Shown piece by piece: positions 1,637 to 15,307 of a stretch of 15,307 nt of DNA. The position numbers were made by a program, and so were the translations under genes. Every line of letters begins with the position of its first letter. The first letter of the stretch is position 1. Source of the stretch: a virus (lineage: Duplodnaviria; Heunggongvirae; Uroviricota; Caudoviricetes). The stretch spans positions 1-15,307 of the IMG/VR virus record IMGVR_UViG_2617270953_000003; one strand, 5' to 3'. The notes beneath the pieces were generated by a model. That model saw only the letters and a program-made list of their open reading frames with translations. It was not told the DNA's origin and made no database searches.

Positions 1637-2128
1637 TCACTCTCCTTTGATGCGAATGCCAGTGGTACTCATTCTCCTGATTTCCCAGAGCACACGAGGA
1701 ACACCACCGTTTCCGACCGGATCGCGCTTACTCCGCATGGCGACGCTTGATTCCGCCCAGCTTTTTCTTGGAGGAAGCTCTTTCACACGAACAAAACCAG
1801 CTGCGCGAAGAGATGCTCCTGATTCATCTGCCTGGGTGTACGTAATACAACGTTGATAACCCATAGCCTTTGCTGCCCGCCAGACAGCACCATAAAGCGC
1901 GCTGTTAGCGTTGCGTTCTCCTGTGGTACATGTGCGATTTACTTCAAGCGTTAATCCATCGTCCAAATGTCGTGCAACAGGTCGACCAGCTGTCGCCACA
2001 CCTATCAATTCTCCGGCATTATTTCTCAGACCAATGCTGAATTTATGCCCCACTGGTGGTTTATTGTGTCGGTGGTGCTGTGCGATAAATTCCTGCGCCG
2101 CTTTCAGCGTTATAGGTGAAATGACCAT
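1637..2128 (-). CDS. hypothetical protein (163 aa), possibly GNAT-fold-like
   Basis: ATG at 2126-2128 with AGGAGG RBS; overlaps the upstream stop by 1 nt (TGATG). Weak GNAT-like pattern (...GVATAG..., ...ALYGAVWRAAKAMGY...AAGF). Confidence 0.5.
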   Translation of the reverse strand: MVISPITLKAAQEFIAQHHRHNKPPVGHKFSIGLRNNAGELIGVATAGRPVARHLDDGLTLEVNRTCTTGERNANSALYGAVWRAAKAMGYQRCITYTQADESGASLRAAGFVRVKELPPRKSWAESSVAMRSKRDPVGNGGVPRVLWEIRRMSTTGIRIKGE

Positions 2129-2607
2129 CACTCAGACTCCTCCTTGATGCCAGCGGCGCGGGAATCATTCCATCGCTTTACTTCTTCACTAATTACGTCA
2201 ATGCATTCTTTCGAATCCATTAGGTAATCTTCATCAAAAAGACGTTCCTGTTCGTTTTCTATCGCAACAATGATTGCTTCAACTAATTTTTGTGCCTGAG
2301 AATCACTTTCTAACTCTGCAATGCGCTTACTCCCATCCGAGATAACACCTTCGTAATACTCACGCTGCTCGTTGAGTTTTGATTTTGTCTCCTCAAGCTC
2401 AACACGCAGCTTCCCTACCGTTAGCGCAATATCCTCGTTCTCCTGGTCGCGGCGTTTGATGTATTGCTGGTTTCTTTCCCGTTCATCCAGTAGTGCCAGC
2501 ACAACCTGAGGTGTGACCTTCATACGAAATGCCAGCAATTTTTGTGGTGTGGCTGCTATTTTTATTGCTTCTGCCGCATCACGCAGTGCCTGATAGTCAA
2601 TTGTCAT
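2128..2607 (-). CDS. coiled-coil-rich phage protein (159 aa), Ea22-type slot
   Basis: ATG at 2605-2607 overlaps the upstream stop (ATGA). Sequence rich in E/K/R/L/Q heptad-like stretches. Confidence 0.5.
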   Translation of the reverse strand: MTIDYQALRDAAEAIKIAATPQKLLAFRMKVTPQVVLALLDERERNQQYIKRRDQENEDIALTVGKLRVELEETKSKLNEQREYYEGVISDGSKRIAELESDSQAQKLVEAIIVAIENEQERLFDEDYLMDSKECIDVISEEVKRWNDSRAAGIKEESE

Positions 2608-3422: not shown

Positions 3423-3716
3423 TCAGTCATTACTGATAGCGCCATAACGTGAGCGGTAATTACGCAGGCGCGGGTCAATTTCAGGGAAGTGGGTATATGT
3501 GGCTTTGCGGAATGGTCGGATTGATGTCTGGTAAATTCGCTCGCGTTCTTCTTTCTCTGCAAGCCATATACAGTGGCGAAATTCCTTTTCCTCTTTCGTT
3601 TCCTGCGGTAGAGACATTATCCGGTCGTAGTTTTTTCTGAATTTATCCAGCACCTCCGATACGGAATTGCCGGAACAGCGGCGCACGTCGTCCGCACCAT
3701 ACAGAGGCGCTGGCAT
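3423..3716 (-). CDS. Abc2-like (anti-RecBCD) candidate, 97 aa
   Basis: Sits promoter-distal to erf, where P22-like phages carry abc genes; similar size to P22 Abc2; AAGGA RBS. Identity is from recall and position only. Confidence 0.45.
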
Positions 3717-3739
3717 AATTAAATCCTTATTGTTCTAAA

Positions 3740-4123
3740 TCAGAATGGGATGGAATCGTCGTATACAGGAGTGTTCTGCTGGTTACTACTTTGCCGCTGC
3801 GGGCCATTTCCTGAAGCTGCAAATCCAATCTTTGCATTCAGTAATTCAAGAGTGATTGATTGACCATTTTGCCCCTGATAAACATCAACCCTGATGTTTT
3901 CTCCGGTAATTTCCACAATTCCACCTTCAACAAGAACACTACGGTAGTAATCCGCTTGCGCTCCCGGCTTGGCAAATACAACGGCGCTGTAGTTTATCCA
4001 TTCTTTCTTTTTTGTCTGGCGATCGTAATACTGAACGCCAGCACGGATGTTGAATCCGATATTTTCCCCGGCCTGAAACTCTCTTGCGGGCTTGTTTAGT
4101 CTTACAGTAATCGAATGTGCCAT
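3740..4123 (-). CDS. ssb: single-stranded DNA-binding protein (short SSB, 127 aa)
   Basis: C-terminal acidic tail ...PVYDDSIPF matches the SSB DDDIPF-type tail; ATG at 4121-4123 overlaps the erf stop (TAATG). Confidence 0.6.
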   Translation of the reverse strand: MAHSITVRLNKPAREFQAGENIGFNIRAGVQYYDRQTKKKEWINYSAVVFAKPGAQADYYRSVLVEGGIVEITGENIRVDVYQGQNGQSITLELLNAKIGFAASGNGPQRQSSNQQNTPVYDDSIPF

Positions 4124-4728
4124 TAAGCAGCCGCTCCTTCTAATTCGTCTCGTCTGATGTTGTAAACGTCCTGCGCTTTGTGCTGCTCCGGTGTGCCTTC
4201 GAGCATCTTCCACGCTTTGGCGAACGCCTGTTTAAGCTCTTCCACGGTGTTTTTCTGCATTGCTGCGTCAGTGAATGCTTTTAGAACCTGTTCAGGTGTA
4301 GGTGATGGTTTTGATTGCTTTGCTGCTGCGTTCTGCTGATGTTTATGCTCGTCTGTATCTGCATCTTTCGCATCATCAATGCCGAACAAACCATTAAGGC
4401 AATACTTGCGCGCATAAGAGCTTGTAGCTCCAGTAACTTGTGCAGAATCCATTCCTTTCTTGCTTTCTTCCTCTCTTGCGAGAGCGGTTGCCGTATGACT
4501 GTTTTCGCCATCGGTAATAGTTGCCGTGGCTTTCACGTAATACCGATCACCAATCAACACAACTTCATCGCTGATTGATAAAAACAGGCCATTCAGTAAC
4601 GGCTTAACGCCTTCAAGAATGTCTTCGCAGCTTCTGTATTTATATTTACCGAATGAGTTGTACTGATTCTTTGGCGCGTTCAGATTCTCCTGAATAGCTG
4701 CCAGTCTTGCATAAAATTCTTTGCTCAT
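4123..4728 (-). CDS. erf: Erf-family single-strand annealing recombinase (201 aa)
   Basis: N-terminus MSKEFYARLA...NAPKNQYNSFGKYKYRSCEDILEGVKPLL matches my recall of P22 Erf; ATG at 4726-4728. Confidence 0.8.
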   Translation of the reverse strand: MSKEFYARLAAIQENLNAPKNQYNSFGKYKYRSCEDILEGVKPLLNGLFLSISDEVVLIGDRYYVKATATITDGENSHTATALAREEESKKGMDSAQVTGATSSYARKYCLNGLFGIDDAKDADTDEHKHQQNAAAKQSKPSPTPEQVLKAFTDAAMQKNTVEELKQAFAKAWKMLEGTPEQHKAQDVYNIRRDELEGAAA

Positions 4729-4829
4729 ATGATTGTTCTCAGAATGGACACGGCCCAAGGAAATAACGCTGATTTAATACTTCTACTCGGGACAAATTAA
4801 GGCATACCCGCATTCCTTCGCGGTCGCCA

Positions 4830-4988
4830 TTATGGCGATACCAGAGAGCTTTCTGCGTGTACATGCGTCTCTGTAACTTGCTCTCCTTCACTGTGGTTGC
4901 AAGTGACATGAATATCTCCTTCGTTACCGATTAAATCTTTCATCTGACGAATGAATTCTTCGTCTGACCAGTTATCTGTAAAACTCAT
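4830..4988 (-). CDS. small hypothetical protein (52 aa) in the kil position
   Basis: ATG at 4986-4988 overlaps the stop of the CIII-like gene (ATGA coupling); no recognisable family. Confidence 0.4.
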   Translation of the reverse strand: MSFTDNWSDEEFIRQMKDLIGNEGDIHVTCNHSEGEQVTETHVHAESSLVSP

Positions 4989-5155
4989 GGGCGGCCTTGT
5001 TGTTTCAAAATATCCCAAAGCTTTTCGAGCAAGCTTTTCATTCTTGGTTGTTTAAAGTCTGCTCCGGTTAAAATATTTTTTCGTGAATGCTGCACCGATA
5101 AAATCGGGTTGAAAGGGCGAACCGATGCCGCCCCTGCAATAGCGAACTGTTGCAT
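4985..5155 (-). CDS. CIII-like protein (56 aa; FtsH/HflB inhibitor family)
   Basis: Start MQQFAIAG resembles lambda CIII MQYAIAG; amphipathic LLEKLWDILKQ segment; AAGGAG RBS 6 nt upstream of ATG at 5153-5155. Confidence 0.5.
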   Translation of the reverse strand: MQQFAIAGAASVRPFNPILSVQHSRKNILTGADFKQPRMKSLLEKLWDILKQQGRP

Positions 5156-5238
5156 AGGATGCTCCTTCTGTTTGATTGCATAACGAAAATGCCTCTCGTG
5201 AAGCATTATTGGTATGCGGTAAAGCCGCGCTTGGCGGC

Positions 5239-5655
5239 TTATTTGAAGATTTCTATGAAATCAAGAACTGATGATATTTCGTGGTTGAACGATTTTCTTT
5301 TGTATCTTTCTATCGCAGAATCCACCTGGTGTTTATAGTCATCGTCGTTTGAGTATTTAACGAAGCATTCTATTGTCTCAGGCGTTACAGCTATAAGGCT
5401 CCACCAACCTTCATCAGATTGATATTCAAATCCCATGCTTTCAAGCCATCCAGCATATTTCCCTCCAGCATCTTGCCAGTGTGTTTTTTCTGCAAGGAAG
5501 CTGTTAACCGTCATATGTGCATCAAGGCATTTATCCAACTGTTTACCATTAAGTAGCCATGCGCTGACAGTTGCACAACCCAAATCAACTGATTGAGTAG
5601 AGATATTGAATTGGTCGTAATTATCTGGATTAACCAGAATATCTGTAATTTTCAT
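5239..5655 (-). CDS. hypothetical acidic, Trp-rich protein (138 aa), ea10-position cargo
   Basis: ATG at 5653-5655 with GGAGG RBS at 4 nt; immediately preceded by an intrinsic terminator; no family recognised. Confidence 0.55.
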   Translation of the reverse strand: MKITDILVNPDNYDQFNISTQSVDLGCATVSAWLLNGKQLDKCLDAHMTVNSFLAEKTHWQDAGGKYAGWLESMGFEYQSDEGWWSLIAVTPETIECFVKYSNDDDYKHQVDSAIERYKRKSFNHEISSVLDFIEIFK

Positions 5656-5667
5656 AATTCCTCCGTC

Positions 5668-5696
5668 AAAAAAATTGCCCTCACACTGGAGGGCAA
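5668..5696 (-). terminator. intrinsic terminator within the pL operon (8-bp stem ttgccctc/gagggcaa, 6-nt loop, T7 tail on minus strand)
   Basis: Perfect 8-bp inverted repeat at 5675-5682 and 5689-5696 with an A7 run at 5668-5674 (T7 on the minus strand). Confidence 0.6.
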
Positions 5697-5830
5697 AGAA
5701 GATTTCCAATAATCAGAACAAGTCGGCTCCTGTTTAGTTACGAGCGACATTGCTCCGTGTATTCACTCGTTGGAATGAATACACAGTGCAGTGTTTATTC
5801 TGTTGTTTATGCCAAAAATGAAGGCCACCA

Positions 5831-6031
5831 TCAGGCAGCCTTGTTGTTCTGTTTACCAAGTTCTCTGGCAATCATTGCCGTCGTTCGTATTGCCCATTTA
5901 TCGACATATTTCCCATCCTCCATTACAGGAAACATTTCTTCAGGCTTAACCATGCATTCCGATTGCAGCTTGCATCCATTGCATCGCTTGAATTGTCCAC
6001 ACCATTGATTTTTATCAATAGTCGTAGTCAT
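5831..6031 (-). CDS. ral: Ral restriction-alleviation protein (66 aa)
   Basis: Sequence MTTTIDKNQWCGQFKRCNGCKLQSEC... matches my recall of lambda Ral; correct size and position downstream of N. Confidence 0.6.
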   Translation of the reverse strand: MTTTIDKNQWCGQFKRCNGCKLQSECMVKPEEMFPVMEDGKYVDKWAIRTTAMIARELGKQNNKAA

Positions 6032-6101
6032 ACGGATAGTCCTGGTATTGTTCCATCACATCCTGAGGATGCTCTTCGAACTCTTCAAATTCTTCTTCCA
6101 T
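6015..6101 (-). CDS. acidic 28-aa ORF (lambda orf28-like), overlaps ral start
   Basis: Hand-translated MEEEFEEFEEHPQDVMEQYQDYPYDYDY; GAGGTGA RBS 4-5 nt upstream of ATG at 6099-6101. Below the track's size cutoff. Confidence 0.3.
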   Translation of the reverse strand: MEEEFEEFEEHPQDVMEQYQDYPYDYDY

Positions 6102-6159
6102 ATATCACCTCAAATAAGTGGTTTGCTGCCTAATTTTATTTTCTGGCGACCAACACAAG

Positions 6160-6543
6160 TCATCTCGCCGTCAGTTGTTTTGATTTCCGGTATCCTGCTG
6201 CGTAAAGAGCTACATTTGGAAGACATACACCAGTTTCTGGTTGCTTATGTCCAAACTCATTCGCGTACACAATGGCCGCTCTCTCCAGATTGCGTCTGTA
6301 TTCTTTCTGTTGCCAGATCACGTCCTGTGCCATGAACTTAATTGGCTTAGCGTCTTCTATGCGCTCAGGCGTTTCGTGAGTACCTTTAGCCTGAATCTGC
6401 GCTCTGCTTAGAGTAGGGCGGTGTAATACTTCTGAACTTATTGCTTCTTCGCGGGCCAGTACGCCGTTAGCTAATGCCTTTGCCTTTAAACGCTCACGAC
6501 GACGAGAACGTGAATTGCCTTTGAACTGAGTTCTGCGTGTCAT
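6160..6543 (-). CDS. N: N-type transcription antiterminator, P22 gene-24-like (127 aa)
   Basis: AGGAGG RBS 6 nt upstream of ATG at 6541-6543; N-terminal arginine-rich motif RRTQFKGNSRSRRRERLKAK; C-terminus ...VALYAAGYRKSKQLTAR resembles P22 N; first gene after pL and nutL. Confidence 0.7.
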   Translation of the reverse strand: MTRRTQFKGNSRSRRRERLKAKALANGVLAREEAISSEVLHRPTLSRAQIQAKGTHETPERIEDAKPIKFMAQDVIWQQKEYRRNLERAAIVYANEFGHKQPETGVCLPNVALYAAGYRKSKQLTAR

Positions 6544-6671
6544 ATAGACCTCCTGGTGAACTTTGGCGGTGAATACAGCCGGGCGACTAACTCCGGTAGC
6601 GTAATCATTGCAAAGCGCCTCCGCCGAGAAGGTTAGCTTCTGCATTCACCCCAAAGTTCACTTTGGTTATT

Positions 6672-6686
6672 GCGCTTTGTCAGCGC
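6672..6686 (-). promoter_or_regulatory. nutL boxB hairpin, P22 type (GCGCUGACAAAGCGC on the transcript)
   Basis: Plus strand gcgctttgtcagcgc is the reverse complement of GCGCTGACAAAGCGC: 5-bp stem with GACAA loop, between pL and N. Confidence 0.7.
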
Positions 6687-6754
6687 CGTAGATTCATATT
6701 TGAATCGTTGTATATTCACCGCCCTGGTGAGTAGTGCGTCCTGCTGATGTGTTT

Positions 6755-6817
6755 AGTATCACCGCCAGTGGTATTTATGTCAACACCGCTAGAGATAATT
6801 CATCACCGCAGATGGTT
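6755..6817 (-). promoter_or_regulatory. OL1-OL2-OL3 operators and pL promoter (lambda immunity type)
   Basis: 17-mers tatcaccgccagtggta (6757-6773), caacaccgctagagata (6781-6797), catcaccgcagatggtt (6801-6817); on the minus strand -35 TTGACA (6778-6783) and -10 GATACT (6755-6760). Confidence 0.85.
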
Positions 6818-6902
6818 ATCTGTATGTTTTTTATATGAATTTATTTTTTGCAGGGGTGCATTGTTTGGTAGGTGAGAGATCTGAACTGCTATGTTTAGTG
6901 AG

Positions 6903-6932
6903 TTGTATCTATTTATTTTCAAATAGATACAA
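6903..6932. repeat. perfect 12-bp inverted repeat with 6-bp spacer (ttgtatctattt-attttc-aaatagatacaa)
   Basis: Arms 6903-6914 and 6921-6932 are exact reverse complements; AT-rich; lies between the tImm-like terminator and OL3. Confidence 0.6.
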
Positions 6933-6970
6933 TTGGTTATGTGTTCTTGGGTGAGGGGGATCGTGAGGCA

Positions 6971-6995
6971 AAGAAAACCCGGCTCTGTGGCCGGG
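6971..6995 (-). terminator. tImm-like intrinsic terminator ending the cI operon
   Basis: Stem cccggc/gccggg (6978-6983, 6990-6995), 6-nt loop, TTTTCTT tail on the minus strand; begins about 10 nt after the stop at 7004. Confidence 0.6.
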
Positions 6996-7003
6996 AATAA
7001 CAT

Positions 7004-7382
7004 TTAGGAATCAAGGTCAGGTAGCATGATTTTCTCAATCAACGTCAATGCCCTTTGGTCTCGTTCAGCAAAATATTTAGGAGCGTACTGAGGCAGCCAC
7101 ACTTCGTTGAAGTATTGTTTGAAATCTGCAATATTCGTTTGGGTATAGACGTACCGGGAATGTCCGGCCATCTGGGTACTCATGGTTATATGTTGGGAAT
7201 GTCTTCGGCTCACCCCCCCGGTTGTCACGGAGCCATTGCGAGAAAACCCTACCCTCTGAAATATCAGGGACCATTTTTTCTGGCAGCGTATATCCGGCCT
7301 GTTCAAGTGGCGCAACCAAGTTAAACGTCAGTTCATTAAGCATAGAAAAGTGCGTATGAGGAACTCTGCCTCGGTTTGTCAT
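7004..7382 (-). CDS. rex-slot ORF split across two frames: frame A 7077-7382 (101 aa) and frame B 7004-7327 (+1 offset); possible frameshifted gene
   Basis: Two overlapping minus-strand ORFs offset by +1 share a C7 tract (7213-7219; G7 on the coding strand) and an A6/T6 tract (7275-7280). Frame B ends 10 nt before the terminator; frame A has a poor RBS. Confidence 0.35.
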
Positions 7383-7421
7383 ATACCGCTTAAGGTGGAT
7401 AGGGAGTTCGGCAGGCGCTCT

Positions 7422-7763
7422 TTAACCTGACATCCACTCACGCACCCATCTCGATACTTGCACTGCAAATTTTGGAGATAGCCACTGAGCTAAATTAATT
7501 GCGATGTCTGGATGAACCCAAGTCCCTTGATTCTCTGCTCTTCCGCCTTTAAATGATTGAATTAACTCCGATATGGGAATCCCCATATCGCGTGATAATT
7601 CATCAAAAAAATCTTGTGTTGTTTTTAGTCGTGTATAGTCAGCAAGTAGCTTCCCCGCAGACTTGCACATCGCGGTGGCATTGATGTATCCGTCTTTGGT
7701 GCGAAGATGGATGACTTCTCCATCAACTTCTCTAGCGATTAATGCAAGTTGAAATTGTGTCAT
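7422..7763 (-). CDS. KilA-N domain protein (113 aa), directly downstream of cI
   Basis: Motifs DGYINATAMCK...GTWVHPDIAINLAQWLSPKFAVQVSRWV are typical of the KilA-N (APSES-like) DNA-binding domain; AGGA RBS; starts 31 nt after the cI stop. Confidence 0.75.
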   Translation of the reverse strand: MTQFQLALIAREVDGEVIHLRTKDGYINATAMCKSAGKLLADYTRLKTTQDFFDELSRDMGIPISELIQSFKGGRAENQGTWVHPDIAINLAQWLSPKFAVQVSRWVREWMSG

Positions 7764-7794
7764 AAATCATCCTATTACGTGAAAAATAAAACAA

Positions 7795-8511
<717 letters not shown>

Positions 8512-8518
8512 TTAAATC

Positions 8519-8584
8519 TATCACCGCAAGGGATAAACTTCTAACACCGTGCGTGTTGACTATTTTACCTCTAGCGGTGATAAT
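8519..8584. promoter_or_regulatory. OR3-OR2-OR1 operators with divergent pRM (minus) and pR (plus) promoters
   Basis: OR3 tatcaccgcaagggata (8519-8535), OR2 taacaccgtgcgtgttg (8542-8558), OR1 tacctctagcggtgata (8566-8582); pR -35 TTGACT (8556-8561) and -10 GATAAT (8579-8584) with 17-bp spacing. Confidence 0.9.
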
Positions 8585-8608
8585 GGTTGCCTGTACTAAG
8601 GAGGTTGT

Positions 8609-8809
8609 ATGGAACAACGCATAACCCTGAAAGATTATGCAATACGCTTTGGGCAAACCAAGACGGCTAAAGATCTCGGCGTATATCAAAGCGCGATTAA
8701 CAAGGCCATTCATGCAGGCCGAAAGATTTTTTTAACTATAAACGCTGATGGAAGCGTTTATGCGGAAGAAATAAAGCCCTTCCCAAGTAACAAAAAAACA
8801 ACTGCATAA
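8609..8809 (+). CDS. cro: Cro repressor, lambda type (66 aa)
   Basis: Sequence matches my recall of lambda Cro apart from about two conservative substitutions; AAGGAGG RBS. Confidence 0.95.
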
Positions 8810-8816
8810 GTAACAC

Positions 8817-8862
8817 CGCTCTTTTCACAATGGACATTCGTCCTACGTCGCTGACAAAGCGA
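8817..8862 (+). promoter_or_regulatory. nutR: boxA-like CGCTCTTTT (8817-8825) and P22-type boxB tcgct-gacaa-agcga (8848-8862)
   Basis: Same GACAA-loop, 5-bp-stem hairpin as nutL; located between cro and the cII-like gene. Confidence 0.65.
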
Positions 8863-8892
8863 GCCCCAAGATATCTGACCAACTAAGGCCAT

Positions 8893-8908
8893 ATGCGTTT
8901 CCACGCAT
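8893..8908 (+). terminator. weak hairpin (atgcgt-ttcc-acgcat) in the tR1 position
   Basis: 6-bp stem and 4-nt loop with a poor T tail; lambda tR1 is Rho-dependent, so a role here is uncertain. Confidence 0.25.
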
Positions 8909-8946
8909 ACCTTTCAACTAACTATTCACTATTGGAAAATTAACAA

Positions 8947-9243
8947 ATGACACAAGCAAGTTATAGCAAGCCAACACAGCGAGAAATTGATCGCGCTGAA
9001 ACTGATTTACTCATCAACCTGTCAACGCTTACCCAGCGCGGTCTGGCAAAGATGATTGGCTGTCATGAATCGAAGATAAGCAGAACGGACTGGAGGTTTA
9101 TTGCTTCGGTCTTGTGTGCTTTCGGAATGGCATCAGACATCAGTCCGATTAGCAGGGCTTTTAAGTATGCATTGGATGGAATCACAAAGAAAAAATCCCC
9201 GGCCGCCACCGAGGATTTTAAGCAAATTGATATGCAATTCTGA
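8947..9243 (+). CDS. cII: CII-like transcriptional activator (98 aa), not the lambda allele
   Basis: Helix-turn-helix region ...GLAKMIGCHESKISRTDW... and C-terminal KKKSPAATEDFKQIDMQF parallel lambda CII, but overall sequence is divergent. Confidence 0.7.
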   Translation: MTQASYSKPTQREIDRAETDLLINLSTLTQRGLAKMIGCHESKISRTDWRFIASVLCAFGMASDISPISRAFKYALDGITKKKSPAATEDFKQIDMQF

Positions 9244-9275
9244 GGTCATTACTGGATCAATCTACAGGAGTAATT

Positions 9276-9437
9276 ATGACAAAACGTCGTAAGAAATACC
9301 AGGAAAAAGAAGAGATTCGACACCCTGATTCACCTGAGGGATTAGTGGTAGCCGCAGCAAATAACAGGGCGTTCGCAGAGCGCCTTGTTGGTGTTTACAG
9401 ACTAGCCAAAGTAGGAGTGAAACATGGGCGTCGTTAA
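9276..9437 (+). CDS. small basic ORF (53 aa) between cII and the replication gene
   Basis: Hand-translated MTKRRKKYQEKEEIRHPDSPEGLVVAAANNRAFAERLVGVYRLAKVGVKHGRR; CAGGAG RBS 5 nt upstream of the ATG; 3' end overlaps the replication-gene start by 14 nt. Confidence 0.35.
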   Translation: MTKRRKKYQEKEEIRHPDSPEGLVVAAANNRAFAERLVGVYRLAKVGVKHGRR

Positions 9438-10314
9438 GTTAGCTGATTACAGGCATAACCCTGTACAACATCAGGAGGCATCCAGTATGGGGTATGTCTC
9501 TATACACCGCCAGTTTATGGACAGCAGGCTCTATAAGGACTCTCAGGCAGTACATCTTTGGCTTCACTTAATCCTCAAGGCTAATCACGAATCTACTGTC
9601 GTCAATACGGATATCGGTCCGATAACTGTTGATCGCGGTCAGATGATAACTGGACGCCCGTCGCTGGTCAGAGAAACATTCATCCCCGACAACAAAGTTC
9701 GGAGCTTATTACGGACTTTTGAGTCGAAAGGTATGCTTAATATTTGCTCGATGGGGAAGAAATTTAGCCTGTTTACAATCGTTAAATATGACGATTTTCA
9801 GGCAAAAAATTGTCCAACGGTTGTCCAACAGTTGTCCAACGCAAACACCAGTAATGGTGCGGCTCTCAGCGGAGATTGTCCAACGGTTGTCCAACAGTTG
9901 TCCATAAACAATAATATAAATAATATCTCTAATACTGACGTATTAGAGAGTGCTACAGCAGACAAAAAGTCTGACAAGAAAAAACCTTCCGTCAGCTGTC
10001 AGGATGTTGTCGATGCTTACCACGAAATCCTTCCTGAAGCGCCAAGAATCCGCGCACTGAATGACAAGCGTAAAAACCAGATCCGAACGTTCTGGCGCAA
10101 AGCCGGAGTGATAACCCGCCAGCTTGACGGACATGGGTTCACGATGCAGGACTGGAGAAATTATTTGAGCTACGTAGGCGAAAATTGCCGATGGATGTTC
10201 GAAGAGCGTCCAAACCATCAACGCGGAACTGTCTGGCACAAAAAGGGATTTGATTTCCTGCTTAACGATAATACCTACCTGAAAGTTCGTGAGGGTGAAC
10301 ACGATGACCGATAA
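9424..10314 (+). CDS. replication initiator (O-like, non-lambda allele) with the origin inside the gene
   Basis: AGGAG RBS; O-type N-terminal region; iteron array embedded in the coding sequence (encoding repeated CPTVVQQLS); followed by a DnaB-family helicase gene. Confidence 0.8.
   Translation: MGVVKLADYRHNPVQHQEASSMGYVSIHRQFMDSRLYKDSQAVHLWLHLILKANHESTVVNTDIGPITVDRGQMITGRPSLVRETFIPDNKVRSLLRTFESKGMLNICSMGKKFSLFTIVKYDDFQAKNCPTVVQQLSNANTSNGAALSGDCPTVVQQLSINNNINNISNTDVLESATADKKSDKKKPSVSCQDVVDAYHEILPEAPRIRALNDKRKNQIRTFWRKAGVITRQLDGHGFTMQDWRNYLSYVGENCRWMFEERPNHQRGTVWHKKGFDFLLNDNTYLKVREGEHDDR
9810..9950. repeat. origin iterons: two copies of a 3 x TTGTCCAAC array (9810-9840 and 9876-9906) plus AT-rich tract (9906-9950)
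   Basis: ttgtccaacGGttgtccaacAGttgtccaac occurs twice about 66 bp apart (last unit of the second copy is ttgtccata), followed by aaacaataatataaataatatctctaatactgacgtattagag. Confidence 0.8.
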
Positions 10315-11740
10315 TTTTTATGCGCCGCCCCATAGCATCGAGGCAGAGCAGGCGGTGATTGGTGGATTGCTTCTGGATGATGACAGCAGTGAGCGCGTCC
10401 AGAAGGTTCTGGCGATGCTGAAGCCTGATTCATTTTACAGCCGGCCACACAAAATCCTTTTCGAAGAAATAACCAGAATGCACCGGGAGCAAAAGCCAGT
10501 AGATGGCCTGACGCTTTTCGATGAACTGGAGCGTAAATCGTTAACTGTGTCTGTTGGCGGTTTTGCTTATATCGCTGAGATCGCAAAGAACACGCCAAGC
10601 GCAGCAAACATCGTTGCCTATGCAATGCAGGTTCGTGAAACCGCAATGGAACGCTACGCCATCAACCGCATGACTGAAGCGACGGAATTGCTCTATTCCC
10701 GCAACGGAATGACTGCAACGCAGAAGTACGAAGCTATTCAGTCGATTTTCACGCAACTGACAGACCATGCAAAAACCGGATCGCGTCGCGGCCTTCGTTC
10801 ATTTGGTGAGGTCATGGAAGACTGGGTTAGCGACCTTGAGAAGCGATTTGACCCATCAGGCGAACAACGGGGAATGAGCACAGGGATCCCATCGCTGGAC
10901 AGGATGCTGTCACCGAAAGGTCTGGTGAAAGGCTCTCTGTTTGTCATTGGCGCTCGCCCTAAGATGGGGAAAACGACGCTATACAGCCAGATGGCAATCA
11001 ATTGCGCAGTGCATGAGAAAAAGCCCGCTTTGATGTTCAGCCTTGAAATGCCAGGTGATCAGATACTGGAAAAACTGGTAGGGCAGAAGTCTGGTGTTAA
11101 CCCGAATATTTTTTACCTTCCGGCGACAAATGACGCTGATGACGGCTATCAGGGTGATTACGATGGTGACTTCAACAGGGCGATCGAAACAGCCAATCGC
11201 TTGAGTGAAATCGACCTGCTTTACATCGACGACACGCCGGGATTATCTCTGGCTCAAATCGTCAGCGAAAGTCGTCGAATCAAGCGAGAAAAAGGATGTG
11301 TTGGCATGATTCTGGTCGATTACCTGACACTAATGACCGCTGAGAAGGCCGATCGCAACGACCTTGCTTACGGCATGATCACCAAAGGACTGAAGAACCT
11401 TGCCAAAGAGCTTGATTGTGTTGTTGTGCTTCTGACACAGCTTAACCGCGCACTGGAAAGCCGAACCAATAAACGCCCATTACCAAGTGACTCCCGAGAT
11501 ACAGGGCAGATTGAACAGGATTGCGATTATTGGGTTGGGATCCATCGTGAAGGTGCTTTTGATGACAGTGTTCCACCTGGTGAAACCGAACTAATCCTTC
11601 GTCTCAATCGTCATGGCAATACCGGCACGGTGTATTGCATTCAGGCAAATGGAGCTATTTATGACACAGACCAACAGTCTGCTGAAATGCGCCGCCGTGA
11701 ACGCGAGGAACCGCAGTCCAAGAAGAAAGGAGGATTCTGA
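10304..11740 (+). CDS. DnaB-family replicative helicase (P22 gene-12-like), 478 aa
   Basis: N-terminus ...FYAPPHSIEAEQAVIGGLLLD... is the classic DnaB start; Walker A GARPKMGKT; ATG at 10304 overlaps the end of the upstream gene. Confidence 0.9.
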   Translation: MTDNFYAPPHSIEAEQAVIGGLLLDDDSSERVQKVLAMLKPDSFYSRPHKILFEEITRMHREQKPVDGLTLFDELERKSLTVSVGGFAYIAEIAKNTPSAANIVAYAMQVRETAMERYAINRMTEATELLYSRNGMTATQKYEAIQSIFTQLTDHAKTGSRRGLRSFGEVMEDWVSDLEKRFDPSGEQRGMSTGIPSLDRMLSPKGLVKGSLFVIGARPKMGKTTLYSQMAINCAVHEKKPALMFSLEMPGDQILEKLVGQKSGVNPNIFYLPATNDADDGYQGDYDGDFNRAIETANRLSEIDLLYIDDTPGLSLAQIVSESRRIKREKGCVGMILVDYLTLMTAEKADRNDLAYGMITKGLKNLAKELDCVVVLLTQLNRALESRTNKRPLPSDSRDTGQIEQDCDYWVGIHREGAFDDSVPPGETELILRLNRHGNTGTVYCIQANGAIYDTDQQSAEMRRREREEPQSKKKGGF

Positions 11741-11768
11741 TGACCATCTACATCACTGAGCTAATAAC

Positions 11769-11800
11769 AGGCCTGCTGGTAATCGCAGGCCTTTTTATTT
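11769..11800 (+). terminator. tR2-like intrinsic terminator (8-bp stem aggcctgc/gcaggcct, 8-nt loop, TTTTTATTT tail)
   Basis: Perfect inverted repeat at 11769-11776 and 11785-11792 followed by a T-rich run, between the helicase gene and ninB. Confidence 0.65.
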
Positions 11801-11816
11801 GGGGGAGAGGGAAGTC

Positions 11817-12257
11817 ATGAAAAAACTAACCTTTGAAATTCGATCTCCGGCACATCAGCAAAACGCTATTCACGCAGTACAGCAAATCCTTCCAGACCCA
11901 ACCAAGCCAATCGTAGTGATCATTCAGGAGCGCAACCGCAGCTTAGACCAGAATCGGAAGCTTTGGGCTTGCCTTGGTGACGTCTCTCGTCAGGTTGAAT
12001 GGCATGGGCGTTGGCTGGATGCAGAAAGCTGGAAGTGTGTGTTTACCGCAGCATTAAAGCAGCAGGACGTTGTTCCTAACCTTGCCGGGAATGGCTTTGT
12101 GGTAATAGGCCAGTCAACCAGCAGGATGCGTGTAAGCGAATTTGCGGAGTTATTAGAGCTTATACAGGCATTCGGTACAGAGCGTGGCGTTAAGTGGTCA
12201 GACGAAGCGCGACTGGCTCTGGAGTGGAAAGCGAGATGGGGAGACAGTGCTGCATGA
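11817..12257 (+). CDS. ninB: NinB (Orf family recombination mediator)
   Basis: Protein MKKLTFEIRSPAHQQNAIHAVQQILPDPTKPIVV... matches my recall of lambda NinB; real start is the internal ATG at 11817. Confidence 0.9.
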   Translation: MKKLTFEIRSPAHQQNAIHAVQQILPDPTKPIVVIIQERNRSLDQNRKLWACLGDVSRQVEWHGRWLDAESWKCVFTAALKQQDVVPNLAGNGFVVIGQSTSRMRVSEFAELLELIQAFGTERGVKWSDEARLALEWKARWGDSAA

Positions 12258-12781
12258 CTATCAAATCAAATACGCCAGCACACGACAAGGACTGCTGGCA
12301 AACGCCGCTCTGGCTTTTTGATGCACTGGATATTGAGTTTGGATTCTGGCTGGATTCGGCAGCGAGCGACAAAAATGCTCTGTGCGCTCACTGGCTAACT
12401 GAGGCTGACAACGCGCTCAATTCTGAGTGGATAAGCCACGGTGCAATCTGGAATAACCCACCGTACAGCAATATCAGGCCGTGGGTGGAAAAAGCCGCTG
12501 AGCAGTGCATACAACAGCGACAGACGGTAGTGATGCTTGTGCCAGAGGATATGTCAGTCGGATGGTTCAGCAAGGCTCTGGAGAGTGTTGACGAAGTTCG
12601 TATTATCACTGATGGACGGATTAATTTTATCGAACCATCGACAGGGCTGGAGAAAAAGGGAAACAGCAAAGGCTCCATGCTGCTGATTTGGCGACCGTTC
12701 ATCAGTCCTCGACGGATGTTTACTACCGTATCCAAAGCGGCATTGATGGCGATCGGGCAGGGCGTCAGGAGGGCAGCATGA
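12254..12781 (+). CDS. dam: phage DNA N6-adenine methyltransferase (Dam family), in the ninC/ninD slot
   Basis: Catalytic NPPY motif (IWNNPPYSN); ATGA overlap with the ninB stop; size about 175 aa. Confidence 0.8.
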
Positions 12782-12960
12782 GACGACAGCGACGAAGTAT
12801 CACCGACATCATCTGCGAAAACTGCAAATACCTTCCAACGAAGCGCTCCAGAAATAAATGCAAGCCAATCCCAAAAGAATCTGACGTAAAAACCTTCAAC
12901 TACACGGCTCACCTGTGGGATATCCGGTGGCTTAGAGAACGTGCGAGGAAAACAAGGTGA
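12778..12960 (+). CDS. ninE: NinE (60 aa)
   Basis: [27 protein letters not shown]... matches my recall of lambda NinE; ATGA overlap with the dam stop. Confidence 0.85.
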
Positions 12961-13127
12961 TTGACCAAAATCGAAGTTACGAACAAGGAAGTGTCGAGCG
13001 AGCTTTAACGTGCGCTAACTGCGGTAAGAAGCTGCATGTGCTGGAAGTTCACGTGTGTGAGCACTGCTGCGCAGAACTGATGAGCGATCCGAATAGCTCA
13101 ATGTACGAGGAAGAAGACGATGAATGA
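12957..13127 (+). CDS. ninF: NinF (56 aa, GTG start, four-Cys motif)
   Basis: Hand-translated (V/M)[55 protein letters not shown]; GTGA overlap with the ninE stop; resembles lambda NinF. Confidence 0.8.
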
Positions 13128-13842
13128 GTTAATAAATGGCAATGCCATCAAAATGACAAGCATTGAAATCGCTGAGTTGGTTGGTAAGCGTCATGACAAT
13201 GTGAAACGTACCATCGAAACGCTGGCTAAAAATGGTGTTATCCGGCTTCCTCAAATTGAGGATTGTGGAAGAATCAATGGGTTAGGCTTAAATCAAAGTT
13301 TTTGTGTGTATGTATTCGAAGGCGAACAAGGAAAGCGAGACAGTATTGTCGTTGTAGCCCAGTTGTCGCCGGAATTCACCGCTCGTCTTGTTGACCGTTG
13401 GCGAGAGCTTGAAGAAACTGCGGTTAATATCCCCAAAACGCTACCAGAAGCGTTGCGCCTTGCTGCTGATCTTGCTGAGCAGAAAATGCAACTGGAAAAC
13501 CAGCTCGCAATTGCCGCACCTAAAGTTGAGTTTGCCGATCGCGTTGGCGAGGCCAGCGGAATTTTGATTGGAAACTTTGCAAAGGTTGTTGGAATTGGTC
13601 CAAACAAACTGTTTGCGTGGATGCGCGATCACAAAATCCTTATTGCTTCAGGTTCCCGGCGCAATGTGCCAATGCAGGAATATATGGATCGCGGCTATTT
13701 CACAGTGAAAGAAACAGCGGTCAACACAAATCACGGAATACAGATATCGTTCACCACAAAAATCACCGGCCGTGGTCAACAGTGGCTGACCAGAAAGCTG
13801 CTCGATAACGGAATGCTGAAAGTAACAGGGGAGGCTGCTTAA
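13120..13842 (+). CDS. phage antirepressor-like protein (Rha-type N-terminal region plus KilAC/ANT-type C-terminal region), Roi-like, 240 aa
   Basis: N-terminus ...MTSIEIAELVGKRHDNVKRTIETLAKNGVI... is Rha-family-like; C-terminal half resembles antirepressor KilAC; GAGGAAG RBS; overlaps the ninF end. Confidence 0.65.
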   Translation: MNELINGNAIKMTSIEIAELVGKRHDNVKRTIETLAKNGVIRLPQIEDCGRINGLGLNQSFCVYVFEGEQGKRDSIVVVAQLSPEFTARLVDRWRELEETAVNIPKTLPEALRLAADLAEQKMQLENQLAIAAPKVEFADRVGEASGILIGNFAKVVGIGPNKLFAWMRDHKILIASGSRRNVPMQEYMDRGYFTVKETAVNTNHGIQISFTTKITGRGQQWLTRKLLDNGMLKVTGEAA

Positions 13843-14132
13843 TGGCTAACCTACGCAAAGAAGCGCGCGGCAGAGAATGCCAGGTACGTATTTACGGCGT
13901 ATGCAATGGTAATCCTGAAACTACAGTTCTGGCACATTACCGGATGGCTGGAATTTGCGGAACGGGAATGAAGCCTGACGACCTGATCGGCGCATGGGCT
14001 TGTAGCGCGTGTCACGATGAAATCGATCGACGTACCCATAACCTCGACAACAAAGACGCCAGACTTTACCACCTCGAAGGCGTAATCAGGACGCAGGCGA
14101 TACTGCTGAAGGAGGGGAAGATTAAGTCATGA
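13842..14132 (+). CDS. ybcO: YbcO-like DUF1364 protein (putative nuclease, 96 aa)
   Basis: MANLRKEARGRECQVRIYGVCNGNPETTVLAH...CSACHDEIDRR resembles DLP12 YbcO; TAATG overlap upstream and ATGA overlap downstream. Confidence 0.7.
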   Translation: MANLRKEARGRECQVRIYGVCNGNPETTVLAHYRMAGICGTGMKPDDLIGAWACSACHDEIDRRTHNLDNKDARLYHLEGVIRTQAILLKEGKIKS

Positions 14133-14524
14133 AAACCTACCGAATAAAATTGCCGTGGCCTCCTTCAAACAACCGATATTGGCGACACTCAAGAGGGATC
14201 CACTACATCAGCGACTGGGGGAAGAGATACCGAAAAGAAGTAATCGAATTAATCCAGCAACAACAGCTAGACATCAAAATCACACCTCGCATCAGAATAA
14301 CCATCCACGCAGCACCTCCCGATAACCGCAAACGAGATTTGGACAATCTGCCCAAAGCCGTTTTTGACGCACTCACCAGTGCGGGCTTCTGGCTGGATGA
14401 CGGTCAGATAGACGATATGCGCATCAAGCGCTATCAGGCGATTAAAGGTGGAATGCTTGTGTTGGTTGTGACTGAAACATGCGGGAGTTTGCCAATGATT
14501 ACAGAGCTACTGGAGGCCGCATGA
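14129..14524 (+). CDS. rusA: RusA Holliday-junction resolvase (131 aa)
   Basis: M.TY.I.LPWPPSNNRYWRH...RDLDNL.KAVFDALTSAGFWLDD matches the RusA signature. Confidence 0.85.
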   Translation: MKTYRIKLPWPPSNNRYWRHSRGIHYISDWGKRYRKEVIELIQQQQLDIKITPRIRITIHAAPPDNRKRDLDNLPKAVFDALTSAGFWLDDGQIDDMRIKRYQAIKGGMLVLVVTETCGSLPMITELLEAA

Positions 14525-14727
14525 CGTTCTCAGTAAAAACCATTCCAGACATGCTCGTTGAAGCATACGGAAACCAGACAGAAGTAGCACGCAGACTGAA
14601 ATGTAGTCGCGGCACGGTAAGAAAATACGTTGATGATAAAGACGGGAAAATGCACGCCATCGTCAACGACGTTCTCATGGTTCATCGCGGATGGAGTGAA
14701 AGAGATGCGCTATTACGAAAGAATTGA
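14521..14727 (+). CDS. ninH: NinH (68 aa)
   Basis: [68 protein letters not shown] matches my recall of lambda NinH; ATGA overlap with the rusA stop. Confidence 0.85.
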
Positions 14728-15307
14728 TGGCAGCAAATACCGAAATATTTGGGTAGTTGGCGATCTGCACGGTTGCTACACGAACCTGATGAACAAACTG
14801 GATACGATTGGATTCGACACCAAAAAAGACCTGCTTATCTCGGTTGGCGATTTGGTCGATCGCGGTACAGAGAACGTTGAATGCCTGGAATTAATCACAT
14901 TCCCCTGGTTCATAGCTGTACGTGGAAACCATGAGCAAATGATGATTGATGGCTTATCAGAGCGTGGAAACGTCAATCACTGGCTGCTTAATGGCGGTGG
15001 CTGGTTCTTTAATCTCGATTACGACAAAGAAATTCTGGCTAAAGCTCTTGCCCATAAAGCAGATGAACTTCCGTTAATCATTGAACTGGTGAGCAAAGGT
15101 AAAAAATATGTTATCTGCCACGCCGATTATCCTTGTGACGAATACGAGTTTGGAAAGCCAGTTGTTCATCAGCAGGTAATCTGGAACCGCGAACGAATCA
15201 GCAACTCACAAGACGGGATCGTAAAAGAAATCAAAGGAGCGGACACGTTCATCTTTGGTCATACGCCAGCAGTGAAACCACTCAAGTTTGCCAACCAAAT
15301 GTATATC
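14705..15307 (+). CDS. ninI: Ser/Thr protein phosphatase NinI (lambda PPase / orf221 family), 3' end beyond window
   Basis: Frame 2 from ATG at 14705 translates [29 protein letters not shown]...GDLVDRG...RGNHE..., the metallophosphatase GDxHG/GDxxDRG/GNHE motifs; absent from the track because no stop occurs before the window end. Confidence 0.85.

What the first reader, a model, noticed from the sequence alone, without database searches (positions are those of the whole stretch)
7004..7382. Downstream rex-slot ORF is split across two frames at homopolymer tracts
Two minus-strand ORFs (7077-7382 and 7004-7327) overlap by about 250 nt in a +1 relationship, and the overlap contains a C7 run (7213-7219) and a T6 run (7275-7280). 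Only frame B ends at the operon terminator, while only frame A has an ATG at the expected position after the KilA-N gene. This fits a 1-nt indel in a slippery tract (pseudogene or sequencing error), a phase-variable switch, or a programmed +1 frameshift.
Basis: seen in the sequence. Interest (0 to 1): 0.6.

Follow-up and report, generated by a model that had tools for sequence, protein, structure and literature searches.

The report
Broken prophage bstA defence gene
The two overlapping reading frames are the tail fragments of a single prophage anti-phage defence gene (BstA family) that has been knocked out by a stop codon and a 2-base deletion, so this is an ordinary, widely shared pseudogene and not a frameshifting or phase-variation device.

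Summary
The overlapping minus-strand frames and the homopolymer runs are present as described.

Intact relatives are E. coli WP_000191544.1 and phage PhiR5_2. They encode one 253-aa protein directly after cI: an N-terminal KilA-N domain plus a BstA_C domain. It matches PHROG 6287, "BstA abortive infection system", at E=1.8e-82.

The window's "KilA-N gene", frame A and frame B map in order onto that one protein. Two lesions break it:
- GAA→TAA at codon 114 (window 7424–7422). This cuts the so-called separate KilA-N gene off from frame A, which is in the same frame.
- A 2-nt deletion at 7130–7132 (GAATAT[CT]TGCAG). This is the real A→B switch. It lies about 80 nt from the C7 run and is not in any homopolymer.

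The ATG at 7382 is internal Met128.

The C7 run comes from a substitution at 7213; intact alleles and most broken ones have G6TT. Its length varies among broken alleles (G5–G8), but no length restores the ORF.

The same double-lesion allele is in 26 other independent sequences. Its 113-aa product is on at least 1000 public contigs. That rules out a sequencing error for these two lesions, and programmed frameshifting and phase variation are not supported.

Interest is low. One residual curiosity is the abundance and recurrence of the domain-boundary stop.

The parts
7004..7763 (-). Whole bstA-like pseudogene. It is 760 nt, against 762 nt in the intact gene. It corresponds to the 253-aa KilA-N + BstA_C protein WP_000191544.1.
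   Evidence: It is 99.2% identical over 762 nt to the intact gene of E. coli D5 and phage PhiR5_2. The intact protein hits PHROG 6287 BstA at E=1.8e-82 over its full length.
7425..7763 (-). N-terminal fragment ORF: 113 codons, the KilA-N domain, residues 1-113. It is the only piece still likely to be translated as a folded domain.
   Evidence: Pfam KilA-N covers residues 13-112 of the intact protein. The fragment maps to phrog_6287 positions 6-121. The exact 113-aa product is on >=1000 contigs.
7422..7424 (-). Premature stop TAA replacing Glu114 (GAA). It is a G->T change at 7424 on the coding strand. It lies in the variable inter-domain linker.
   Evidence: Alignments to intact alleles. Linker variability is seen.
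7131..7421 (-). Frame-A segment homologous to residues 115-211 of the intact protein. It is in the same frame as the KilA-N ORF. The ATG at 7382-7380 is internal Met128.
   Evidence: BLASTP gives 96/98 identities to residues 115-212. It maps to phrog_6287 positions 164-253.
7130..7132 (-). Site of the 2-nt deletion. Intact alleles read GAATAT-CT-TGCAG and the window reads GAATATTGCAG. The exact position is ambiguous by one base. This is the true frame A to frame B switch.
   Evidence: All 27 intact alleles examined have the two extra bases.
7077..7130 (-). Out-of-frame tail of frame A: 17 nonsense-sense codons (CRFQTILQRSVAASVRS) plus a stop.
   Evidence: No homology beyond Tyr211.
7004..7129 (-). 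Frame-B segment homologous to residues 213-253 of the intact protein, plus the native stop codon (7006-7004).
   Evidence: The BLASTP alignment spans intact residues 206-253, and true homology starts at Ala213. It maps to phrog_6287 positions 245-301. It contains invariant F215 and Y231 and near-invariant F219, W223, F232 and R235.
7130..7327 (-). Upstream part of frame B. It is open by chance and has no homology to anything.
   Evidence: only the last ~48 residues of frame B align.
7213..7219 (-). C7 run (G7 on the coding strand). It was created by a T->G substitution at 7213 (Val184Gly). It is not an indel and not the frame junction.
   Evidence: Intact L001-type alleles and 22 broken alleles have G6TT. 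The window has G7T, L016 has G8T and L005 has G5TT.
7274..7279 (-). T6 run (A6 on the coding strand). It has the same length in all seven aligned homologues.
   Evidence: Alignment.
6978..6995 (-). Intrinsic-terminator-like hairpin plus T-tail, 8 nt after the native stop codon of the gene.
   Evidence: Owen et al. describe a native Rho-independent terminator after bstA (PMC8585504).
7795..8508 (-). cI-type repressor (237 aa, HTH + S24 peptidase) directly upstream. The pseudogene starts 31 nt after its stop codon.
   Evidence: PHROG 4 transcriptional repressor at E=1.6e-61. RefSeq annotates the homologue as 'LexA family protein'.

Best explanation
Window 7004-7763 (minus strand) is one decayed gene. 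It is a BstA-family abortive-infection (anti-phage defence) gene in its usual place, directly downstream of the prophage repressor cI and ending at its own terminator.

The intact gene encodes a 253-aa protein with an N-terminal KilA-N DNA-binding domain and a C-terminal BstA_C domain. In this window it carries two inactivating lesions.
1. GAA->TAA at codon 114 (7424-7422).
2. A 2-nt deletion at 7130-7132. This moves the last 41 conserved codons into another frame.

Frame A is therefore residues 115-211 plus a junk tail. Frame B is a junk head plus residues 213-253.

Shown here: the homology, the exact lesions, and their presence in many independent sequences.

Inferred:
- No full-length BstA is made, so this prophage no longer gives BstA-type defence.
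- At most the 113-aa KilA-N fragment is translated from the cI transcript.
- The poly-G changes (G6->G7, G8, G5) are neutral drift or homopolymer sequencing noise in a dead region.
For: 1. Intact single-ORF homologues sit in the same position after cI. Examples are E. coli D5 WP_000191544.1 and phage PhiR5_2. 17 of the 22 closely related full-length (>=94% identity) E. coli RefSeq hits look intact from match length or annotation; five of the 22 were inspected directly. 21 of the 22 IMG/VR contigs with GAA at codon 114 have an uninterrupted reading frame, including one cut by its contig end.

2. Base-by-base alignment shows the window differs from the intact allele by only five changes:
- 7755, synonymous
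- 7424, G->T nonsense
- 7213, T->G
- a 2-nt deletion at 7130-7132
- 7114, C->T

3. The three window ORFs map in order onto phrog_6287 'BstA abortive infection system': positions 6-121, 164-253 and 245-301. The intact protein scores:
- PHROG 6287, E=1.8e-82
- PADLOC BstA, E=2.5e-20
- Pfam KilA-N, E=8e-27
- precomputed PF26567 BstA_C
- 29% identity to the C-domain of experimentally characterised BstA-BTP1

4. 2748 homologues have E<=1e-10. Nearly all of the 120 listed are single proteins of about 250 aa with both domains.

5. Residues after the deletion include invariant F215 and Y231 and near-invariant F219, W223, F232 and R235.

6. The identical double-lesion allele is in 26 other sequences from RefSeq, IMG/VR, NCBI/ENA assemblies and metagenomes. 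The 113-aa product is on >=1000 contigs.

7. The same 90% clusters hold many other independent knock-outs: S70*, W82*, W94*, Q176*, W177* and frameshifts. Loss of this gene is therefore common.

8. Family biology comes from Owen et al. 2021 (PMC8585504).
Against: - No expression or phenotype data exist here, so 'non-functional' is inferred from sequence.
- The stop lies exactly at the domain boundary. The truncated allele is as abundant as the intact one (>=1000 contigs against 924). Some retained function for the KilA-N fragment or the 5' DNA is therefore not excluded.
- The 253-aa subfamily has not itself been tested experimentally. It is only 29% identical to BstA-BTP1, and only over the C-domain.
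- The local Pfam and NCBIfam copies did not report a BstA_C model hit. That domain call rests on precomputed annotations.
Confidence: 0.93

Rival explanations
1. The truncated allele is kept because part of it still works. One option is the stand-alone 113-aa KilA-N domain acting as a DNA-binding or dominant-negative factor. The other is the 5' DNA of the locus (the equivalent of the aba anti-BstA element: 29 bp upstream plus the first 34 bp of the CDS) still giving the phage immunity to intact cognate BstA in other lysogens. Frames A and B would still be dead remnants.
For: - The stop is in the linker, right after the KilA-N domain.
- The same codon is hit on at least two nucleotide backgrounds: GGT-TAA and GGC-TAA. 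There is also a Klebsiella variant whose C-terminal ORF is still intact.
- The truncated product is on >=1000 contigs, against 924 for the intact one.
- aba is a DNA element overlapping the gene start, and it works in trans (PMC8585504).
- The upstream 37 nt are identical between the broken and intact alleles.
Against: - With 109 possible one-step nonsense changes and about 7 independent events, one coincidence has roughly an 18% chance.
- Truncations inside the KilA-N domain also occur: 69, 81 and 93 aa, and the 69-aa form is on 86 contigs.
- The abundance can be hitch-hiking with a successful cI immunity module.
- The broken allele differs from the intact one by 4 changes only, so it is young. 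There is no sequence variation with which to measure selection.
- The aba element of this subfamily is unmapped.
Confidence: 0.1
2. The split is a sequencing or assembly error, and the real gene in the source organism is intact.
For: - Homopolymer length differs between otherwise identical sequences. The window (G7) and L016 (G8) are 100% identical over the other 11.6 kb.
- E. coli strain 81 has G5 together with several other frameshifted genes, as expected for an error-prone assembly.
Against: - Neither inactivating lesion is in a homopolymer.
- Both lesions are identical in 26 other independently assembled sequences. These are 3 RefSeq complete genomes, 8 IMG/VR contigs, 10 NCBI/ENA assemblies and 5 metagenome contigs.
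- The 113-aa product is recorded in 1970 blocks of the collection.
Confidence: 0.02
3. Phase variation: slippage in the C7 (or T6) tract switches the downstream ORF on and off.
For: - Tract lengths G5, G6, G7 and G8 are seen among broken alleles.
- One database protein (P0135, 239 aa, 8 contigs) is a frameshift exactly at this tract in an otherwise intact allele.
Against: - The frame junction is about 80 nt downstream of the tract.
- No observed tract length restores the ORF, because TAA114 and the 2-nt deletion remain.
- All 11 intact L001-type allele copies examined have G6. More distant intact alleles have only G4.
- The window's G7 arose by substitution, not slippage.
- The T6/A6 run has the same length in all seven aligned homologues.
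- 6-8 nt is short for an efficient contingency tract (general knowledge).
Confidence: 0.02
4. Programmed +1 ribosomal frameshifting (with or without stop-codon read-through) produces a fused A-B product.
For: Only the geometry: two overlapping frames in a +1 relation, with the terminator after frame B.
Against: - Homologues encode the protein in a single frame. These are thousands of proteins of about 250 aa and 27 intact close alleles.
- The two-frame arrangement exists only in alleles carrying the 2-nt deletion.
- The junction (TAT TGC) is not a known slippery or hungry-codon site.
- An efficient in-frame TAA lies 290 nt upstream.
- Frame A's ATG is internal Met128, preceded by only a weak, badly spaced Shine-Dalgarno-like sequence (read directly from the sequence).
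Confidence: 0.01

Closest known systems
BstA abortive-infection defence system of Salmonella prophage BTP1 and its homologues BstA-Ec and BstA-Kp (Owen et al. 2021, Cell Host Microbe, PMC8585504)
   Same: - The locus is immediately downstream of the prophage repressor and has its own Rho-independent terminator.
[quoted passage not shown]
- The intact allele matches the BstA PHROG 6287 profile over its full length and the PADLOC BstA profile over its C-domain.
- Gene order is cI-bstA-terminator-N, as in BTP1.
   Different: - The window copy is inactivated by a nonsense mutation and a 2-nt deletion.
- The intact relatives form a shorter subfamily, 253 aa against 307 aa.
- They have a canonical Pfam KilA-N domain.
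- Identity to BstA-BTP1 is only 29%, restricted to the C-domain.
- No member of this subfamily has been tested experimentally.
- Its aba element has not been mapped.
E. coli / phage PhiR5_2 KilA-N domain-containing protein WP_000191544.1 (XSB41358.1)
   Same: - It is the direct intact counterpart, 99.2% identical in DNA.
- It has the same flanks: cI upstream and the terminator downstream.
   Different: It is a single 762-nt ORF. The window has TAA at codon 114, lacks 2 nt at codon 212, and has Val184Gly and His218Tyr-equivalent changes.
RefSeq WP_227164514.1, the 113-aa 'KilA-N domain-containing protein' of E. coli EC2641, 1008S19 and strain 81
   Same: - The truncated product is identical.
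- In EC2641 and strain 81 the two lesions downstream of the same cI are identical to the window's; strain 1008S19 is assigned to this allele from its 851-nt, 99.9% match only.
   Different: EC2641 has G6TT where the window has G7T (7213), and strain 81 has G5TT.
lambda rexAB (genes co-transcribed with cI that exclude other phages)
   Same: The genomic slot and logic are the same: a lysogen-expressed defence gene riding on the repressor transcript. This comparison rests on general knowledge.
   Different: There is no sequence or domain relationship. BstA is a single protein that blocks phage DNA replication (PMC8585504).

Membership tests
BstA family (prophage abortive-infection proteins) | Sequence match to BstA family profiles over both domains | tested here: met
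   Intact counterpart: PHROG 6287 at E=1.8e-82, residues 1-252 against profile positions 6-301/304. PADLOC BstA at E=2.5e-20 on residues 120-237. BstA-BTP1 itself hits the same PHROG at E=2e-150. The window fragments map in order onto the profile.
BstA family (prophage abortive-infection proteins) | [quoted passage not shown] | tested here: met
   Pfam PF04383 at E=8.2e-27, residues 13-112. There are weak PDB hits to Mbp1 APSES domains only.
BstA family (prophage abortive-infection proteins) | C-terminal BstA domain (PF26567 BstA_C) | tested here: met
   - PF26567 is precomputed on all 120 listed homologues and on the 55-aa frame-B remnant.
- BLASTP to BstA-BTP1 residues 171-302 gives E=5e-15.
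- The local Pfam and NCBIfam copies returned no hit for this domain.
BstA family (prophage abortive-infection proteins) | Located directly downstream of a prophage repressor, with its own terminator | tested here: met
   cI is at 7795-8508 and the gene starts at 7763. The terminator is at 6995-6978. The layout is the same in BTP1 and is described in PMC8585504.
BstA family (prophage abortive-infection proteins) | One uninterrupted ORF encoding both domains (i.e. a functional member) | tested here: not met
   TAA at codon 114 and a 2-nt deletion at codon 212. The window copy is therefore filed as a pseudogene of the family, not a working member.
BstA family (prophage abortive-infection proteins) | Cognate aba DNA element overlapping the gene start that gives self-immunity | not testable with these tools
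   - aba is defined functionally in BTP1: 63 bp with terminal CCCGCC repeats.
- aba elements are homologue-specific.
- No repeat of >=10 nt flanks the start codon here.
- The only allele-specific change in the equivalent stretch is G->A at 7755.
BstA family (prophage abortive-infection proteins) | Abortive infection / block of phage DNA replication | not testable with these tools
   This needs plaque and replication assays.
Programmed ribosomal frameshift genes | Two-frame arrangement conserved in homologues, with a slippery site at the junction | tested here: not met
   Homologues are single-frame. The junction is a 2-nt deletion in GAATAT[CT]TGCAG.
Phase-variable (contingency) loci | Homopolymer at the frame junction whose length variants switch the ORF on and off | tested here: not met
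   The junction is about 80 nt from the C7 tract. The G5-G8 variants all remain broken. All 11 intact L001-type allele copies examined have G6, and more distant intact alleles have G4.

The most novel reading that the evidence does not exclude
The broken allele may be an 'immunity-only' or 'decoy' form of the BstA system, not just debris. It would have dropped the costly abortive-infection protein while keeping two things: the 5' aba-like DNA and/or a stand-alone KilA-N domain.

That would let the phage replicate in lysogens that carry the intact cognate BstA. It could explain three observations:
- The stop at the exact domain boundary is found on two or three backgrounds.
- The truncated allele is about as common as the intact one.
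- The remnant has not been deleted.

A variant of the idea: the G->A change at 7755, inside the aba-equivalent stretch, first weakened self-immunity. Loss of BstA then became advantageous.
Probability: 0.08. Interest if true: 0.55.

Novelty: already known. Interest (0 to 1): 0.15.

Why it matters
For annotation, the three ORFs at 7004-7763 should be merged into one bstA-family pseudogene. They should not be called as a KilA-N gene plus hypothetical proteins, which is how RefSeq currently treats the N-terminal piece.

For biology, this prophage should be scored as lacking BstA-type defence, even though a KilA-N hit sits next to cI.

More broadly, the close family shows many independent knock-outs (nonsense at codons 70, 82, 94, 114, 176 and 177, plus frameshifts). 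That fits the idea that abortive-infection genes in prophages are frequently lost. It would matter more only if the truncated allele proved to retain anti-BstA immunity.

Tried and rejected
- NCBIfam scan of the intact protein and the three fragments: no hit.
- Local Pfam scan of frames A and B: no hit. The local copy did not report BstA_C.
- PDB sequence search: only marginal hits to Mbp1 APSES domains, and no solved BstA.
- Rfam scan of the whole window: nothing.
- Repeat search around the gene start for an aba-like pair of direct repeats: nothing of >=10 nt. The 6-nt repeats of the BTP1 type cannot be told from chance.
- Exact-pattern scan of GTDB species representatives for the TAA114 allele: no match.
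- Literature search for later BstA work: only citations, with no new mechanism and no mention of this pseudogene.
- I considered the recurrence of TAA at codon 114 as a significant signal and rejected it. It has about an 18% chance under a uniform model with 7 events.

Full report
**Observation**

The window's minus strand between 7004 and 7763 holds three ORFs:
- 7422-7763: 113 aa, with a KilA-N domain.
- 7077-7382: "frame A", 101 aa, ATG start.
- An open frame ending at 7004: "frame B". Stop-to-stop it runs 7327-7004, and its longest start-codon ORF is 7004-7315 with a TTG start.

The C7 run is at 7213-7219 as stated. The T6 run is at 7274-7279, one base off the stated position. A terminator-like hairpin with a T-tail lies at 6995-6978, 8 nt after frame B's stop. 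So the description holds.

Only a single TAA (7424-7422) separates them...WVREWMSG*RAPAELPIHLKRYMTNRG....

**What intact relatives show**

Megablast against phage and E. coli genome collections found near-identical loci whose match is 853 nt where the window has 851 nt.

In E. coli D5 and in phage PhiR5_2, the region directly after the cI repressor gene is one 762-nt gene. It encodes a 253-aa "KilA-N domain-containing protein", WP_000191544.1.

Within 6950-7800 the window differs from both of these intact loci at five places, all inside the gene:
- 7755: synonymous change in codon 3.
- 7424: G->T, turning Glu114 GAA into TAA.
- 7213: T->G, giving Val184Gly.
- 7130-7132: two bases missing. The intact sequence is GAATAT-CT-TGCAG.
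- 7114: C->T.

BLASTP gives the following mapping:
- Frame A equals residues 115-211 of the intact protein, followed by 17 unrelated codons.
- Only the last 41 codons of frame B (7129-7007) equal residues 213-253.
- The first 66 codons of frame B match nothing.

The A-to-B switch is therefore a 2-nt deletion. It lies about 80 nt downstream of the C7 run and about 140 nt downstream of the T6 run, and it is not in a homopolymer. The ATG at 7382 is internal Met128.

**What the gene is**

The intact protein has these matches:
- Pfam KilA-N on residues 13-112.
- PHROG 6287, "BstA abortive infection system, replication inhibitor", at E=1.8e-82 over its full length.
- The PADLOC BstA model at E=2.5e-20 on the C-terminal half.
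- Precomputed PF26567 (BstA_C) on its homologues and on the frame-B remnant.
- 29% identity to residues 171-302 of the experimentally characterised BstA of Salmonella prophage BTP1. That protein hits the same PHROG.

The window's three ORFs hit PHROG 6287 at positions 6-121, 164-253 and 245-301, which is collinear.

Owen et al. 2021 (PMC8585504) describe BstA as follows:
- It is a prophage protein encoded downstream of the repressor.
- It has a KilA-N-like N-domain and a separate C-domain.
- It aborts infection by blocking phage DNA replication.
- It is neutralised for the resident prophage by aba. This short DNA element spans 29 bp upstream and the first 34 bp of the gene, and it is specific to each homologue.

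The window has the expected layout: cI (7795-8508), a 31-nt gap, the gene, a terminator, then a PL-like promoter and an N-like gene. BTP1 has the same order.

The deep protein search returned 2748 homologues at E<=1e-10. Nearly all of the 120 listed are single proteins of about 250 aa with both domains. An alignment of 18 diverse members shows that:
- the part moved out of frame by the deletion carries invariant F215 and Y231 and near-invariant F219, W223, F232 and R235;
- codon 114 lies in the variable inter-domain linker.

**Is it an error?**

No. The same allele is identical in 26 other independently assembled sequences. It is defined by CAA at codon 3, GGT-TAA at codons 113-114, the 2-nt deletion and the C->T change. 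The 26 sequences are:
- E. coli EC2641 and strain 81;
- eight IMG/VR contigs;
- ten NCBI/ENA assemblies carrying the exact 113-aa product;
- six metagenome contigs, five of which are long enough to show the deletion.

A third RefSeq genome, E. coli 1008S19, is assigned to this allele from its 851-nt, 99.9% match only; its sequence was not read here.

The 113-aa product is recorded on at least 1000 contigs in 1970 blocks of the collection. The intact protein is on 924 contigs.

The broken allele is the commonest intact allele plus four changes.

**The homopolymer tracts**

On the coding strand the tract reads as follows:

| Sequences | Tract |
|---|---|
| All 11 intact L001-type allele copies examined, and 22 broken alleles | G6TT |
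| More distant intact alleles | G4 |
| The window | G7T |
| IMG/VR contig L016 | G8T |
| E. coli strain 81 | G5TT |

- The window's G7 arose from a substitution, not from slippage.
- L016 is otherwise 100% identical to window 3679-15307.
- The strain 81 assembly has several other frameshifted genes.

But it sits in an already dead region, and no observed length restores the ORF. It may be partly sequencing noise. The A6/T6 run has the same length in all seven aligned homologues.

**Verdict on the interpretations**

- Pseudogene: supported, but with a different lesion at a different place, plus an upstream nonsense mutation that redefines the "KilA-N gene" as a fragment.
- Sequencing error: rejected for the two inactivating lesions.
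- Phase variation and programmed +1 frameshifting: not supported. Homologues are single-frame, the junction is a deletion in non-slippery sequence, and a TAA lies upstream.

**Residual points**

TAA at codon 114 also occurs on a second nucleotide background. It is GGC-TAA in E. coli H5/H6 and in contigs L010 and L056, where the C-terminal ORF is intact. A Klebsiella 113-aa variant is paired with an intact C-terminal ORF.

The H6 allele looks like a mosaic of two intact haplotypes around the site. I could not decide between recombination and independent mutation.

The same protein clusters contain other nonsense truncations (S70*, W82*, W94*, Q176*, W177*) and several frameshifts. One of those frameshifts lies at the poly-G tract (P0135). 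With 109 possible one-step nonsense changes, seven independent events give about an 18% chance of one coincidence. The recurrence alone is therefore not significant.

This gene is often lost. Whether the abundant domain-boundary truncation keeps a function is open. Candidates are a stand-alone KilA-N domain, or retained aba-like DNA giving immunity to intact BstA in other lysogens. I rate this possibility low.

**Novelty and score**

The family, its genomic slot and this very allele are already in the public record, so this is an ordinary decayed defence gene. Interest is 0.15.

Noticed in passing
L016 (IMGVR_UViG_2585427774_000002) vs window 3679-15307; tract at window 7213-7219: An 11.6-kb stretch is identical to the window except for one extra G in the poly-G tract (G8 against G7). 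This is either true slippage in a dead region or a homopolymer sequencing error.
   Followed up: partly
L006 (E. coli H6) 1540-2301; L010; L056; proteins P0124/P0139 (Klebsiella): The same GAA->TAA stop at codon 114 occurs on a different nucleotide background (GGC-TAA). There the C-terminal ORF is still intact and the immunity region is different (XRE/YdaT). Recombination and independent mutation were not resolved.
   Followed up: partly
Protein clusters (P0123, P0126, P0128, P0127, P0129, P0135, P0122, P0132); L024: The close family carries many independent knock-outs: stops at codons 70, 82, 94, 176 and 177, and several frameshifts. One frameshift is exactly at the poly-G tract (P0135, 239 aa). 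This suggests frequent loss of this defence gene.
   Followed up: partly
window 6903-6932: A perfect 12-nt inverted repeat with a 6-nt spacer (TTGTATCTATTT / AAATAGATACAA). It lies between the bstA terminator and the PL-like promoter (6783->6755, minus strand). It could be a protein-binding palindrome or a second hairpin.
   Followed up: no
window 7755: The only change specific to the broken allele within the stretch equivalent to the BTP1 aba element (29 nt upstream plus the first 34 nt of the CDS) is a synonymous G->A in codon 3. Its significance is unknown.
   Followed up: no
window 1637-2131 (minus strand): A 164-aa ORF matches only positions 20-175 of a 245-position 'Mom-like DNA modification protein' profile. 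It may be another truncated gene.
   Followed up: no
L040, L042, L047 (loci): The cI + broken-bstA module also sits in heavily rearranged prophage remnants. In these, a DnaB fragment abuts an antiterminator gene, and an integrase lies close to RecT. The module therefore persists in cryptic prophages.
   Followed up: no
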